Shown here: piece by piece, positions 2,454 to 59,291 of the stretch
Numbering within the stretch: position 1 is the first letter of the stretch
Layout of the letters: the number at the start of each line of letters is the position of its first letter
Assembly: GCA_951406725.2 (NCBI GenBank)
Contig: OX597821.1
Span: 86,180,001 to 86,244,000, forward strand
Origin: Octopus vulgaris
Taxonomy: Eukaryota
Reading direction: 5' to 3'
DNA length: 64,000 nucleotides
Notes under the pieces: generated by a model
The model's database searches: none
What the model saw: only the letters and a program-made list of their open reading frames with translations
Told to the model about the DNA's origin: nothing
Made by a program: the position numbers and the translations under genes

Positions 2454-50421
<47,968 letters not shown>

Positions 50422-52538: not shown

Positions 52539-52720
52539 GAGGATTATTAGATGAAGTAGAATCTTCATGTTACGTAGTTGACCTTATTAGCAGTGGAGGA
52601 GGTTGGTCTGAAAGTATAGTCGCTAGAATATTAACCGGCTGGAGAAAGTTCAGAGAGCAATTACCTCTAGAGGTAACAAATGGTCTCTCTCTCTCTCTTT
52701 CTCTTTCTCTCTCCTCTCAG

Positions 52721-52758
<38 letters not shown>

Positions 52759-52895
52759 CATTTGTCACCTCTAGAGGTAATTGCTCTCTGAACTTTCTCC
52801 AGCCGGTTAATATTCTAGCGACTATACTTTCAGACCAACCTCCTCCACTGCTAATAAAGTCAACTACGTAACACGAAGATTCGACTTCATCTAAT

Positions 52896-52902
<7 letters not shown>
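52539..52902. repeat. inverted duplication (144 bp arms) of an RTE LINE fragment around a (CT)n/(GA)n centre
   Basis: 52539-52682 pairs with 52759-52902; peptide ISSGGGWSESIVARILTGWRKFREQLPL is homologous to VSSGGECTESVTARVRIAWAKFRELLPL of the RTE at 33300. Confidence 0.9.
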
Positions 52903-52946
<44 letters not shown>

Positions 52947-53065
52947 CTCTCTTTCTTCCTCTCTCTCTCTCTCTCTCAGGCAGAAAAACAGATTGAATAA
53001 TGCATACATACACGCATACATACATACATGCATATATGTGTATGTTTGTATATATATATATATAT

Positions 53066-53096
<31 letters not shown>

Positions 53097-53244
53097 CAAA
53101 AAGCAATAAAGATTCAAGTTAATTTAAATGAATTTACTTGAATATGGTACCTAACTTAGATGCACCAAAAAAACTATACTGATTTAACAATACAGTAATG
53201 TGGGGTGATTATAAGCGAGAATGAAGCAACAAGAATGGATAGGT

Positions 53245-53335
53245 TTTTAGTACAATCGTTTCATACAAGGACAGGTTTTATTAAAAGTTGCAAAGATTAC
53301 AGCATATAAACGTGTCCCGTACTCATCAGCTAAAA
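53245..53335 (-). ncRNA. mirror copy of the Penelope hammerhead ribozyme
   Basis: reverse complement of 58717-58807. Confidence 0.82.
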
Positions 53336-54874
53336 TACATGTGAGTTCTCTAGACATCCTAGTGGTTGAGGCTATTACTCATGAAGTAATGTAGATAATT
53401 AAGTAACATAAACAGATTTCAAAAGTTCATTAAAGTTCTTTAAAGATGATGTACAGTCTTATCACAGAATTTTAAAAAAGTCTTAATAGCATCACAGAGA
53501 AGGTGACCCAATCCATAGTGCACATATGAATTTCCAGAGATATGATGAGGGATTACATACTCACAGAAGGCAAATTTATCCATTGTTAATTACAACTAGG
53601 TGGGTTTCAATTCCTGCTTATTAGCATTACAGAGAGGGTGAATTAATCCTTTGTATAGATGCACAATTTCCAATGGTGTAGGTGTAAATTTCCAAGGAAT
53701 TTCATATTCACAGGCGATAAATTTATCAATGGTTGAACACAATGAGGTAGGTATCAATTCTTGCTATATGATTAGGTATTTGCCACATTAATCACATTAC
53801 TGCTATTTACAAGAGGCTGTAGCTATTTAACTTTTAAAGGCTGAAGGGCTTACTGGAGCTGTATAGAATAGAAAAGGGAGGGGCATAGAAGAAAAGAGAG
53901 AAAATAAAAGAAAGAAAATAAAATAAAAGAGGAGGGGGCAAAAAGGGGGGGGAAAGGGGGACTCAAAGAGAAGAGAAAAGGAAAAAGAGAATAAGAAGAA
54001 GAAAAAGAAAAAAAGAGAAAAGAGAAAGAAAAAGAAAAGGAATAGGGAAGGAAGGGAACAAAGAAAAAGAAAAAGAAGAAAAAAAGAAAAAAGAAAAAAG
54101 AAGAAAGAAGAAAGAAAAAGATAAAAAGGGTTCTAGTTATACAGAAGAATTAGTAGACGACAAGTCTGGTTTTAGTTTACAGGCATCTAGGAATTAGAGG
54201 AGAATATTATTCTTTGACCAGTTAAAATAGCTAATTTATTGCTGTTGAAATCAGCTATGAATTTAAAGAGAATCTAAAGAGATAACACAGTTAGGGGTCT
54301 CGGGGTCAGATGCTAAAATCACCAGAAAATACATTAGGGAAAACTAGGTATAATCTTATCAAAAAGTCATTAAAATTTACTTACTTATTTATTCATTTTA
54401 TTGTCTTAAGGAGTTGCCGTTATTATTCATACATTGACGGACTACAGGTCAAATCTTAGGAGATCATTCAAAAGGTGTTAGGGGATTGTCTATCATAATG
54501 AAGATAATCATATTATCACCGAGGGAATAGTCTCATTTATTTAATTTTGAAATAGAACAATGGGTCTATAGTAACTCATTTTAATTAATTAGAGTTATGC
54601 TAATTAAATTAGATTAAGTTAGGAACTAAAATTAAAAATTACAATTAAGATTTAAAATTAAGAATTTAAAAAATTTAAAAATTGTGAGTTTGAAATTAAA
54701 TAAAGCCTCAATTAAGCGGCGAATAAGTGCTATTCATTTCCCTGTTCTCAAAAAACTGATGTAGATATAGGAAAAAGATAACTGTAGTGTGAGAACTCTT
54801 AGTTATCTACTTAAAGCAGTGCTATACCAGTAGAAATCAGGTTATATCTATCTATCTAGTTACGAATATTCTAA

Positions 54875-55752
54875 TCATTTAAAATATTTTAAAGTCTTCA
54901 ATTTAGCGTGGACACAAACTTGACCTAGTTCGATATGGTTGTTCAATAGGTTTCTATGTTTTCTATGCTTTAGAATTTCATATGTCTCCATGGAGCATAG
55001 TTGGCAACCAACCCTACTATTTTTATACGGAATTGCTCTCCTAACTATTTCCCAATTAAGGTTATAATTTTTATTATTATTTTTGAGTTCCCAGATTTTG
55101 TTTAAAAGTGTGGTGGTACCAGCTTTATGACGTAATTTAAAAGTCGAGATGTGATTTCTAACTCTAGCTAAAAAATTTATTGTACATCCAAGGTAATAAT
55201 ATTTGTTATTCTCCGTGGATATGGTACATTTATAGATTACATTATTTTCTCCACATAGACCAGGTGCCGGGCATTTTGATTTTATTCTACACTTACACAC
55301 AGGAGGAATACCTTCAGGCTTTGGATTATTCTTGGGTAGATGTTTTAGGTTCCTGTTATTTTGATTATCATTTCTATAGTTGGTGCTGATATCTAAAGTA
55401 TTGCTATTATTTCTTGATCCTTCTGTTTCATTATTTAGATCTAAAGTCCTACCATGATTTCTTATATTATTGGTAATGTTAATATTATTGCTAGTCTTTT
55501 TATCCGACTGCATATTGTTGTTATAGATATCACTAATATTTTCATTCTCCTTATTTTCTCTATTTTCCCTATTTCTATTATTTTTATTATTAACATTATT
55601 ACTTCTACTAATATCGGCATTGCTATTATTACTATTAATGTTAATGTTATTAGTCATTCTGTGGTTACTAATTTCACCTATGTTTTGATAGTTACTATTG
55701 CTGCTTTTATTGTTGGTAGTATTATTACAATTGCTATTGGTCTTCATGCCGA

Positions 55753-55783
<31 letters not shown>

Positions 55784-56104
55784 TATATTTCTATCTTTCC
55801 TGGCTAGTTTAATGTTGTTATTATTAATCTTAGCTATTAAAGTGGACATATTTGGGAGGGTTGAATAAGAAATCCTAACTGTTTTCCTAGAAATAATTCT
55901 ATGATATCTATGAGAGATAGGGAAATTTTTTTCCAGAATCACTTTGAATTTGTTCTGTATATCTGATTGTATCGCACAGTTGAAAGGAATATTCAGCCAT
56001 AATATATCTTTTTTATTAAATTTAGGGTTCGTAGAATTATTACTATTCATCTCACCGGAGTTATTGTATTTATTACCATTATTTTTATTTTTATTTGTGT
56101 GCAT
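54875..56104 (-). CDS. 5'-truncated Penelope-like ORF: linker + Cys cluster + GIY-YIG endonuclease (no RT domain)
   Basis: ILWLNIPFN..HRIISRKTVRISYSTLPNM, CKCRIKSKCPAPGLC, VIYKC..YYLGCT..RVRNH, CQLCSME; frame stays open upstream to the junction, so the Met is internal. Confidence 0.8.
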
Positions 56105-56200
56105 CTTAGGTTTATCTACTTCAATACTATCCGAGTTACCTATGTTCTGGTCAATGTTTCTATTTGAATTGTTGGGCCTGTACGCTAGACTAGCGTAAAT

Positions 56201-56266
56201 ATGTCCACTTTAATAGCTAAGATTAATAATAACAACATTAAACTAGCCAGGAAAGATAGAAATATA

Positions 56267-56297
<31 letters not shown>

Positions 56298-57175
56298 TCG
56301 GCATGAAGACCAATAGCAATTGTAATAATACTACCAACAATAAAAGCAGCAATAGTAACTATCAAAACATAGGTGAAATTAGTAACCACAGAATGACTAA
56401 TAACATTAACATTAATAGTAATAATAGCAATGCCGATATTAGTAGAAGTAATAATGTTAATAATAAAAATAATAGAAATAGGGAAAATAGAGAAAATAAG
56501 GAGAATGAAAATATTAGTGATATCTATAACAACAATATGCAGTCGGATAAAAAGACTAGCAATAATATTAACATTACCAATAATATAAGAAATCATGGTA
56601 GGACTTTAGATCTAAATAATGAAACAGAAGGATCAAGAAATAATAGCAATACTTTAGATATCAGCACCAACTATAGAAATGATAATCAAAATAACAGGAA
56701 CCTAAAACATCTACCCAAGAATAATCCAAAGCCTGAAGGTATTCCTCCTGTGTGTAAGTGTAGAATAAAATCAAAATGCCCGGCACCTGGTCTATGTGGA
56801 GAAAATAATGTAATCTATAAATGTACCATATCCACGGAGAATAACAAATATTATTACCTTGGATGTACAATAAATTTTTTAGCTAGAGTTAGAAATCACA
56901 TCTCGTCTTTTAAATTACGTCATAAAGCTGGTACCACCACACTTTCAAACAAAATCTGGGAACTCAAAAATAATAATAAAAATTATAACCTTAATTGGGA
57001 AATAGTTAGGAGAGCAATTCCGTATAAAAATAGTAGGGTTGGTTGCCAACTATGCTCCATGGAGACATATGAAATTCTAAAGCATAGAAAACATAGAAAC
57101 CTATTGAACAACCATATCGAACTAGGTCAAGTTTGTGTCCACGCTAAATTGAAGACTTTAAAATATTTTAAATGA
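56201..57175 (+). CDS. mirror, more truncated copy of the GIY-YIG ORF
   Basis: identical to the last 324 aa of the minus ORF except T/S and L/S substitutions. Confidence 0.75.
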
Positions 57176-58716
57176 TTAGAATATTCGTAACTAGATAGAT
57201 AGATATAACCTGATTTCTACTGGTATAGCACTGCTTTAAGTAGATAACTAAGAGTTCTCACACTACAGTTATCTTTTTCCTATATCTACATCAGTTTTTT
57301 GAGAACAGGGAAATGAATAGCACTTATTCGCCGCTTAATTGAGGCTTTATTTAATTTCAAACTCACAATTTTTAAATTTTTTAAATTCTTAATTTTAAAT
57401 CTTAATTGTAATTTTTAATTTTAGTTCCTAACTTAATCTAATTTAATTAGCATAACTCTAATTAATTAAAATGAGTTACTATAGACCCATTGTTCTATTT
57501 CAAAATTAAATAAATGAGACTATTCCCTCGGTGATAATATGATTATCTTCATTATGATAGACAATCCCCTAACACCTTTTGAATGATCTCCTAAGATTTG
57601 ACCTGTAGTCCGTCAATGTATGAATAATAACGGCAACTCCTTAAGACAATAAAATGAATAAATAAGTAAGTAAATTTTAATGACTTTTTGATAAGATTAT
57701 ACCTAGTTTTCCCTAATGTATTTTCTGGTGATTTTAGCATCTGACCCCGAGACCCCTAACTGTGTTATCTCTTTAGATTCTCTTTAAATTCATAGCTGAT
57801 TTCAACAGCAATAAATTAGCTATTTTAACTGGTCAAAGAATAATATTCTCCTCTAATTCCTAGATGCCTGTAAACTAAAACCAGACTTGTCGTCTACTAA
57901 TTCTTCTGTATAACTAGAACCCTTTTTATCTTTTTCTTTCTTCTTTCTTCTTTTTCTTTTTTTCTTTTTTTTCTTCTTTTTCTTTTTCTTTGTTCCCTTC
58001 CTTCCCTATTCCTTTTCTTTTTCTTTCTCTTTTTCTCTTTTTTCTTTTTCTTCTTCTTATTCTCTTTTTCCTTTTCTCTTCTCTTTGAGTCCCCCTTTCC
58101 CCCCCCTTTTTGCCCCCTCCTCTTTTATTTTATTTTCTTTCTTTTTTATTTTCTCTCTTTTCTTCTATGCCCCTCCCTTTTCTATTCTATACAGCTCCAG
58201 TAAGCCCTTCAGCCTTTAAAAGTTAAATAGCTACAGCCTCTTGTAAATAGCAGTAATGTGATTAATGTGGCAAATACCTAATCATATAGCAAGAATTGAT
58301 ACCTACCTCATTGTGTTCAACCATTGATAAATTTATCGCCTGTGAATATGAAATTCCTTGAAATTTACACCTACACCATTGGAAATTGTGCATCTATACA
58401 AAGGATTAATTCACCCTCTCTGTAATGCTAATAAGCAGGAATTGAAACCCACCTCGTTGTAATTAACAATGGATAAATTTGCCTTCTGTGAGTATGTAAT
58501 CCCTCATCATATCTCTGGAAATTCATATGTGCACTATGGATTGGGTCACCTTCTCTGTGATGCTATTAAGACTTTTTTAAAATTCTGTGATAAGACTGTA
58601 CATCATCTTTAAAGAACTTTAATGAACTTTTGAAATCTGTTTATGTTACTTAATTATCTACATTACTTCATGAGTAATAGCCTCAACCACTAGGTTGTCT
58701 AGAGAACTCACATGTA

Positions 58717-58807
58717 TTTTAGCTGATGAGTACGGGACACGTTTATATGCTGTAATCTTTGCAACTTTTAATAAAACCTGTCCTTGTATGAAACGATTGT
58801 ACTAAAA
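58717..58807 (+). ncRNA. type I hammerhead ribozyme with long stem II, at the 3' end of the Penelope-like element
   Basis: TTTTAG CTGATGA GTACGGGACA...TGTCCTTGTAT GAAA CGATTG TA CTAAAA; predicted cleavage after 58801. Confidence 0.82.
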
Positions 58808-58836
58808 ACCTATCCATTCTTGTTGCTTCATTCTCG

Positions 58837-58837
<1 letters not shown>

Positions 58838-58902
<65 letters not shown>

Positions 58903-59049
58903 CATATATATATAATATATATATATAAAATATACATATATGTAATATACATATATATATATAATATATACACACATGTATATAATGTACATATATATCA
59001 TATATATATGTATATATATATATATATATATATACTTATATATATATAA

Positions 59050-59100
<51 letters not shown>

Positions 59101-59120
59101 TATATGTATATAAATATTAG

Positions 59121-59156
<36 letters not shown>

Positions 59157-59177
59157 TCAAAAATATATATATATATG

Positions 59178-59227
<50 letters not shown>

Positions 59228-59260
59228 AATATTAGATACATATATATATATATATATATT

Positions 59261-59291
<31 letters not shown>

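What the first reader, a model, noticed from the sequence alone, without database searches (positions are those of the whole stretch)
53100..58838. 5.6 kb fold-back Penelope-like element: 2.64 kb near-perfect inverted arms, endonuclease only, anchored in (TA)n
Seen: arms 53214-55853 and 56197-58838 diverge from a 343 bp spacer that is the 5' continuation of the left copy. Each arm has an open GIY-YIG ORF, a ~1.6 kb 3' region and an HHR. There is no RT domain and no obvious TSD, and both ends run into (TA)n (the left copy extends ~115 bp further). At least five differences separate the arms (e.g. HISTFK/HISSFK, TLLNK/TLSNK, a 1 nt indel near 53690/58360). Inference: a young single insertion event targeted to TA microsatellites. 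It could form a 2.6 kb hairpin RNA or cruciform ~2.7 kb downstream of the MOXD1-like stop.
Basis: partly seen in the sequence, partly recalled or inferred. Interest (0 to 1): 0.7.

Follow-up and report, generated by a model that had tools for sequence, protein, structure and literature searches.

The report
Mirror-image Penelope retrotransposon insertion
This is a back-to-back pair of shortened copies of a young jumping gene that sits in TA repeats hundreds of times in this genome, and because the two arms almost always stop at two different fixed points, the shape likely records one RNA being copied from both sides of a DNA break; the layout itself is a known feature of Penelope-type elements.

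Summary
Observation confirmed: arms 53214-55853 and 56197-58838 differ at 12 of 2644 columns; the left copy runs 117 nt further; both ends enter (TA)n. It is a 5'-truncated, head-to-head insertion of a young, roughly 4.7-kb endonuclease-bearing Penelope-like retrotransposon. Five intact 952-954-aa RT+GIY-YIG copies lie elsewhere, so 'endonuclease only' reflects truncation. The protein carries the Hydra-clade motifs (RWK, DKT, CxCX5C, CxxC/CxH) plus two Asn-rich inserts. The fold-back is the family norm. Across 103 loci, 75 pair a long end (A) with a short end (B), 4 have an odd second arm, 24 are single, and none is A/A or B/B. 85 of 85 A ends on two chromosomes enter TA repeats. Arms share locus-private variants, so they have one template. 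Best mechanism (inferred): both target strands prime reverse transcription at two start sites on one RNA. Inverted 5' copies with a one-sided tail, and two start sites in vitro, are published. This scan already noted the A/B rule on non-coding hammerhead elements of this genome. Reads did not test the junction. Any effect on the nearby monooxygenase gene is untested.

The parts
53049..53096 (.). left (TA)n target tract
53097..53213 (-). 117-nt tail on the left copy only; 53097 is the long 3' end (site A)
53214..55853 (-). left arm (A arm), shared part
53244..53335 (-). type I hammerhead motif, left arm (predicted; 1-bp helix III with palindromic loop)
   Evidence: motif reading per PMC4209133; not listed by Rfam
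54875..56196 (-). 3' part of the element ORF, about residues 515-954 of the 954-aa protein: Asn-rich inserts, CxCX5C linker, GIY-YIG endonuclease; RT core missing
55854..56196 (-). 343-nt spacer, the 5' continuation of the left copy
56182..56196 (.). 15-nt element-encoded palindrome (7-bp stem) whose edge is the arm junction; no overlap or inserted bases at 56196/56197
   Evidence: same palindrome in 3 of 22 other arms covering this site
56197..58837 (+). right arm (B arm); 58837 is the short 3' end (site B)
56197..57175 (+). 3' part of the ORF, about residues 630-954, open to the stop
56741..57175 (+). CxCX5C linker and GIY-YIG endonuclease domain
58717..58808 (+). hammerhead motif, right arm; predicted cut after 58801, 36 nt before site B
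58838..59291 (.). right (TA)n target tract

Best explanation
This is a single, recent, 5'-truncated head-to-head insertion of an endonuclease-bearing Penelope-like retrotransposon with Hydra-clade motifs into a TA microsatellite, likely made when both cut target strands primed reverse transcription on one element RNA at two fixed start sites 117 nt apart. Shown: identity, full-length RT+endonuclease relatives, TA targeting, the long-end/short-end pairing, and one template for both arms. Inferred: the GIY-YIG domain cuts both strands of (TA)n; one 3' end primes at site A and the other at site B; each cDNA stops early (here at element positions about 1598 and 1941 of about 4713); the two cDNA ends are joined and filled in. 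That gives inverted arms, a one-sided tail, and a spacer equal to the extra length of the longer cDNA. The locus lacks the RT core and is predicted to be non-autonomous.
For: Family: 543 first-look candidates, 40 scored at 97-100%; 5 intact 952-954-aa ORFs; the RT folds closest to telomerase RT (E 7e-10). Pairing: on C1+C2, 34 of 34 head-to-head end pairs within 15 kb are A+B, about 1e-11 if ends were drawn at random. Over 103 loci read: 75 A/B, 4 with a non-canonical second arm, 24 single, 0 A/A or B/B. Single copies end at either site (13 A, 11 B), so B behaves as a start of its own. Either arm can be the longer at the 5' side: 13 A-longer, 10 B-longer, 19 symmetric of 42 end-selected pairs; 18, 9 and 0 of 27 endonuclease-selected pairs. 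In B-longer pairs neither arm contains the other, so neither is a simple copy of the other. One template: arms are closer to each other than to the median other copy in 31 of 31 pairs, pooled 0.14% against a median 0.8%; 25 of 51 locus-private substitutions in arm overlaps are on both arms. TA targeting: 85 of 85 terminal A ends on C1+C2, two of them with short imperfect tracts, against 1.4% background. Published in vitro work on another PLE: both strands cut and extended, two internal RT start sites that bound the tail, dimer predicted (PMC11167929).
Against: 19 of 42 pairs have near-symmetric centres (permutation mean 2.2, maximum 9), and the window's junction sits on a template palindrome. 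Both are what snap-back self-priming predicts, and dual priming explains them only if both RTs stop at the same place. Four loci have a second arm that ends at neither site (L042, L071, L084, L102); L071 looks like a short fold-back copy. In L042 the arms differ at 4 sites where both alleles occur in other copies, which points to two templates or two events. The in vitro study saw no difference in start site between strands, so it does not itself predict strict pairing. Arm similarity could also come from gene conversion between arms.
Confidence: 0.6

Rival explanations
1. Same element, but the second arm is made by fold-back: one cDNA primed at A snaps back at a short palindrome, copies itself, and is resolved into the other TA flank at B; later deletions make the centre asymmetric.
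For: Excess of symmetric centres, 19 of 42; junction on a template palindrome here; shared private variants on both arms; L071-type short second arms; self-priming proposed for junction palindromes in PMC3846280, and endonuclease resolution proposed for the tail in PMC8557442.
Against: B-longer pairs (19 of 69) need one-sided deletions of up to 3.8 kb. Eleven B-only copies need loss of the whole A arm. Fold-back from a B-primed cDNA cannot make the tail and should give B/B pairs, of which none were seen.
Confidence: 0.3
2. The mirror image at this locus is an assembly or fold-back-read artefact.
For: No listed contig from four runs bridged the junction (see Tried and rejected; not counted as evidence). 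The window's arm differences are private to one arm, as consensus errors would be.
Against: The arms end at two different family-canonical sites with different flanks, which a mirrored read cannot produce. The same layout recurs at 74 other loci with different junctions.
Confidence: 0.03
3. Two independent insertions landed back to back, or the structure is a foldback/MITE-type DNA transposon.
For: The family is abundant and prefers TA; long inverted termini resemble foldback elements superficially.
Against: No TA tract between the arms; about 0.5 chance neighbours expected against 34 seen; arms share private variants; the full-length copy encodes an RT, not a transposase.
Confidence: 0.02
4. 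The palindrome has been kept because read-through from the upstream monooxygenase gene forms a 2.6-kb hairpin RNA that regulates the gene or silences the family.
For: 99.5% arm identity; + strand gene upstream; small RNAs from inverted Penelope copies are reported in a rotifer (PMC3846280).
Against: The insertion is very young and of a layout found throughout the genome. There is no clear A>G excess among locus-private changes (A>G 48 on 1616 A sites, T>C 31 on 1331 T sites). No transcript evidence was obtained.
Confidence: 0.05

Closest known systems
Hydra clade of C-terminal EN+ Penelope-like elements (Craig et al. 2021, PMC8557442; section 11 read whole, other passages by search)
   Same: Single ORF with RT then C-terminal GIY-YIG; RWK, DKT, CxCX5C linker, CxxC and CxH around the conserved E and N; hammerhead; (TA)n targets.
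   Different: About 4.7 kb and 954 aa, against the 'generally <3 kb' described. Two Asn-rich inserts (about residues 484-572 and 660-811) are absent or much shorter in the 22 aligned homologues. The 3' region is 1.7 kb and the tail 117 nt, against 30-40 bp. No tree with reference Hydra sequences was built.
Inverted 5'-truncated pLTR with optional tail in EN+ PLEs; Adineta vaga Penelopes (Arkhipova et al. 2013, PMC3846280; passages)
   Same: Head-to-head inverted copy at the 5' end, tail on one of the inverted repeats, palindromes at the junction, Asn-rich inserts that keep the ORF open.
   Different: The tail is described there as optional. Here it is on exactly one arm in 75 of 79 inverted loci, the arms reach kilobases, and no TSD is readable.
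Poseidon element of Anolis carolinensis, in vitro (Frangieh et al. 2024, PMC11167929; parts 1-2 of 4 read)
   Same: Two RT start sites just downstream of the hammerhead define the tail; both target strands are cut and extended; the predicted hammerhead cut site is not where insertions end.
   Different: Different clade. Start sites there lie inside the ORF start and close together. Pairing of the two sites within one insertion was not reported in the parts read.
L1 twin priming (recalled, no call)
   Same: Both target strands prime on one RNA and give an inversion.
   Different: L1 arms cover non-overlapping parts of the RNA; here both arms cover the same 3' region.

Membership tests
EN+ Penelope-like element | Telomerase-like RT in the full-length ORF | tested here: met
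   YRDD at 355; best structural match TERT, E 7e-10; Pfam blank
EN+ Penelope-like element | GIY-YIG endonuclease in the same ORF | tested here: met
   Model pLDDT 86; top match I-TevI, probability 0.98 but E 0.05, with T4 EndoII and UvrC also listed; Y, Y, G, R, E, N invariant in 29 sequences
EN+ Penelope-like element | pLTR from partial tandem copies, inverted 5' copy, one-sided tail | tested here: met
   pLTR running into the ORF in L033, L034, L040, L042, L043, L053; 15 such junctions genome-wide
EN+ Penelope-like element | Hammerhead motif in the pLTR | tested here: met
   Core and stems I/II by motif and fold; not listed by Rfam; cleavage not testable here
Hydra clade | RWK motif and DKG changed to DKT | tested here: met
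   RWK at 37, DKT at 124
Hydra clade | CxCX5C linker | tested here: met
   C815-C817-C823
Hydra clade | CCHH motif absent from the endonuclease | tested here: met
   No conserved CxxC between the VIY and YLG motifs; the position of CCHH in canonical PLEs is recalled, not taken from a call
Hydra clade | [quoted passage not shown] | tested here: met
   C912-C915 before E, C942-H944 after N; invariant
Hydra clade | Insertion into (TA)n | tested here: met
   85 of 85 terminal A ends on C1+C2
Hydra clade | Generally short, under 3 kb (stated as a tendency, not a diagnostic) | tested here: not met
   Unit about 4.7 kb, owing to Asn-rich inserts and a 1.7-kb 3' region
Hydra clade | RT phylogeny within the clade; no IFD; no N-terminal CxC domain | not tested
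   No named reference sequences were in hand (homologues are unnamed); the paper's supplements were not opened. Filed as an EN+ PLE and only as a likely Hydra member.
Foldback/MITE DNA transposon | Fixed terminal inverted repeats, transposase, TSD | tested here: not met
   Arms vary in length and have two different outer ends; full-length copies encode an RT

The most novel reading that the evidence does not exclude
Penelope-type elements integrate by an obligate two-headed reaction: a protein dimer on one RNA primes one target strand at site A and the other at site B, so inverted arms and the one-sided tail are the primary product. This young Hydra-like family, with intact coding copies and a 117-nt spacing between start sites, is an autonomous system in which that can be tested directly.
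Probability: 0.45. Interest if true: 0.7.

Novelty: new member of a known kind. Interest (0 to 1): 0.38.

Why it matters
How PLEs make their inverted and tandem insertions is named as an open question in PMC8557442. The strict pairing of two start sites on one template, counted here in a coding family with intact copies, links the genomic tail to the two start sites seen in vitro and gives a sharp prediction. The locus itself is an ordinary truncated copy.

Tried and rejected
Reads: no RNA holder was on record. Contigs of four runs laid on 55790-56262 covered the element sequence, but no listed piece bridged the 56196/56197 junction and 183 pieces were not shown. This is inconclusive; no long reads were laid, and presence or absence across individuals stays open. 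Dimer prediction for residues 1-480 gave no answer. Pfam found nothing in the window ORFs, the full-length ORF or five homologues. Rfam listed only simple-repeat matches below threshold. A PDB profile search gave one weak RT match. An ADAR footprint in the copies was sought and not found. The idea that the junction palindrome was made by snap-back was dropped because 3 other arms carry it. The first junction-overlap measure was spoiled by polymorphisms. The redo gave 10 of 27 junctions with 1-6 nt overlap, 8 blunt and 9 with apparent inserts, some of which may still be polymorphism; no claim of microhomology dependence is made. L034/L035 and L042 were left out. The arm difference for L034 comes mostly from an alignment end at an internal duplication. 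Literature searches for a dual-priming model of PLE inversions found none; the library lacks most subscription papers, including Arkhipova 2006 and Evgen'ev and Arkhipova 2005, which I did not see.
Full report
Observation. The inverted repeat is real sequence at the stated place: arms 53214-55853 and 56197-58838 with 343 nt between them. They differ at 12 of 2644 columns, 6 substitutions and 6 gap columns. The left copy reads on the minus strand through the spacer in one open frame of 444 codons, the right copy in one of 328. The left copy extends 117 nt beyond the right, to 53097. Both outer ends run into (TA)n. A hammerhead core lies in each arm, with a predicted cut 36 nt before the short end; Rfam did not list it. 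Its 1-bp helix III with a palindromic loop is the metazoan type that PMC4209133 (passages read) describes as needing a dimer.

Identity. A 701-nt probe from the endonuclease region gave 543 first-look candidates in the 2.8-Gb genome; the 40 scored are 97-100% identical. Among 35 other loci fetched, five carry uninterrupted ORFs of 952-954 aa. The unit is about 4.7 kb, and in six loci a copy of its 3' end runs directly into the ORF start, forming a pLTR; 15 exact pLTR-ORF junctions exist genome-wide. The full protein models well apart from two Asn-rich stretches and matches telomerase RT best. The window's C-terminal domain matches GIY-YIG nucleases, weakly by E-value but consistently. Thirty-two homologues were found with the RT half, 31 of them at 31-40% identity and one partial match at 69% named from an octopus. 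An alignment with 22 of them shows RWK, DKT, a CxCX5C linker, CxxC before the conserved E and CxH after the conserved N. These are the features given for the Hydra clade in PMC8557442. The family is longer than the described members and no tree was built, so it is filed as an EN+ PLE and a likely Hydra member. The window's copies start at about residues 515 and 630, so the RT core was lost by 5' truncation. The nearest copy is 0.18-0.19% away and the nearest intact one 0.44-0.53%.

The fold-back is the family norm. Copies end at one of two sites: A (window 53097) or B (window 58837). Exact patterns gave 578 matches for the A core and 313 for B followed by TA, the latter with some double counts. 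On C1 and C2, where both lists were complete, 47 B ends and 74 A ends form 34 head-to-head neighbours within 15 kb, all A+B, with one direct A-A neighbour and no tail-to-tail pair. I then read 103 loci. The 36 endonuclease-selected loci (window included) gave 27 A/B, 1 odd and 8 single. Sixty end-selected loci (20 of them already known pairs) gave 43 A/B, 3 odd and 14 single. Seven further A ends gave 5 A/B and 2 single. In total: 75 A/B, 4 odd, 24 single (13 A, 11 B), and no A/A or B/B. These classes are my reading of the alignments; L058 and L098 were read from flank sequence, and L040's upstream side is unresolved near an assembly gap. Twelve unpaired A ends and 9 short pairs on C1+C2 were not fetched. 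All 85 terminal A cores on C1+C2 run into TA repeats, two of them short and imperfect; the background in the window is 1.4%.

One template per insertion. In 31 of 31 pairs with at least 300 scored sites, the arms are closer to each other than to the median other copy: pooled 35 differences in 24,994 sites (L034/L035 and L042 left out). Of 51 locus-private substitutions in arm overlaps, 25 are on both arms. The four scored differences in the window are each private to one arm. L042 is an exception, with four sites where both alleles occur elsewhere. Gene conversion could add to the similarity.

Mechanism. Dual priming on one RNA explains the strict pairing, single copies of both kinds, and the fact that either arm can be longer. 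In B-longer pairs each arm holds sequence the other lacks. It fits PMC11167929, where a Poseidon protein cut and extended both strands from two internal start sites that bound the tail, and hammerhead cleavage was not needed. Here too neither fixed end is at the predicted cut. Against it stand the 19 of 42 symmetric centres, the window's junction at a template palindrome and four odd second arms; these suit the self-priming proposed in PMC3846280. Symmetry is compatible with dual priming if a trailing RT stops where the leading one did; that step is inference. I put dual priming at 0.6 and fold-back at 0.3.

Artefact and function. A mirrored read cannot give two different canonical ends with different flanks, and the layout recurs at 74 other loci, so an artefact is unlikely; the read check was inconclusive. 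A copper-monooxygenase gene lies upstream on the + strand. Nothing was obtained on read-through, and the copies show no clear A>G excess.

Novelty. Inverted 5' copies with a tail at one end, TA targeting and Asn-rich inserts are all published. Active Penelope families are reported in an octopus repeat annotation (PMC13282606, passages); bioRxiv 10.64898/2026.07.22.740005 was seen as abstract and outline only. Five searches found no paper stating the pairing rule or dual priming for PLEs, within a library that lacks the older key reviews. Earlier notes of this scan already report the long-end/short-end rule for non-coding hammerhead elements and PLE ends in this genome, though none for this sequence; I had reached the rule before reading them. 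What this locus adds is the same rule in a coding family with intact copies, the shared-template test and the symmetry counts. Verdict: a new member of a known kind, interest 0.38.

Noticed in passing
window 46741-48563: A second, unrelated head-to-head element: 239-nt arms 99% complementary, TA on both sides, right arm about 70 nt longer, with a hammerhead-like core near 48434-48460 read by eye. Same layout, different family; the 1.3-kb centre is low-complexity sequence.
   Followed up: partly
window 52539-52902: 174-nt inverted arms (95%) of what looks like a LINE fragment around a (CT)/(AG) centre, 200 nt left of the element; Pfam blank.
   Followed up: partly
window 18202-50420 (+): Copper type II monooxygenase gene with exons at 18202, 22075, 24589 and 38946 and a candidate last exon at 50296-50418.
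   Followed up: partly
B ends across fetched loci: 51 of 80 B ends read CGCG-TATA where the template has CGCT-TATA, i.e. a G that no A arm carries at that place; possibly a non-templated first nucleotide.
   Followed up: partly
L034/L035 (G000:C2:37617236-37627973): A 10.7-kb A/B insertion in which both arms are longer than one unit, each with its own pLTR; consistent with a tandem or circular template.
   Followed up: partly
L064:864-1913; L067: Diverged subfamilies (82-85% to the reference) also show long-end/short-end inverted pairs in TA.
   Followed up: no
L036:3033-3989: ORF fragment of a different PLE of the same type beside a copy of this family.
   Followed up: no
window 10989-16222, 26457, 49313: Dispersed copies of a 200-300-nt repeat, three at about 2-kb spacing (families D16 and D20).
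   Followed up: no
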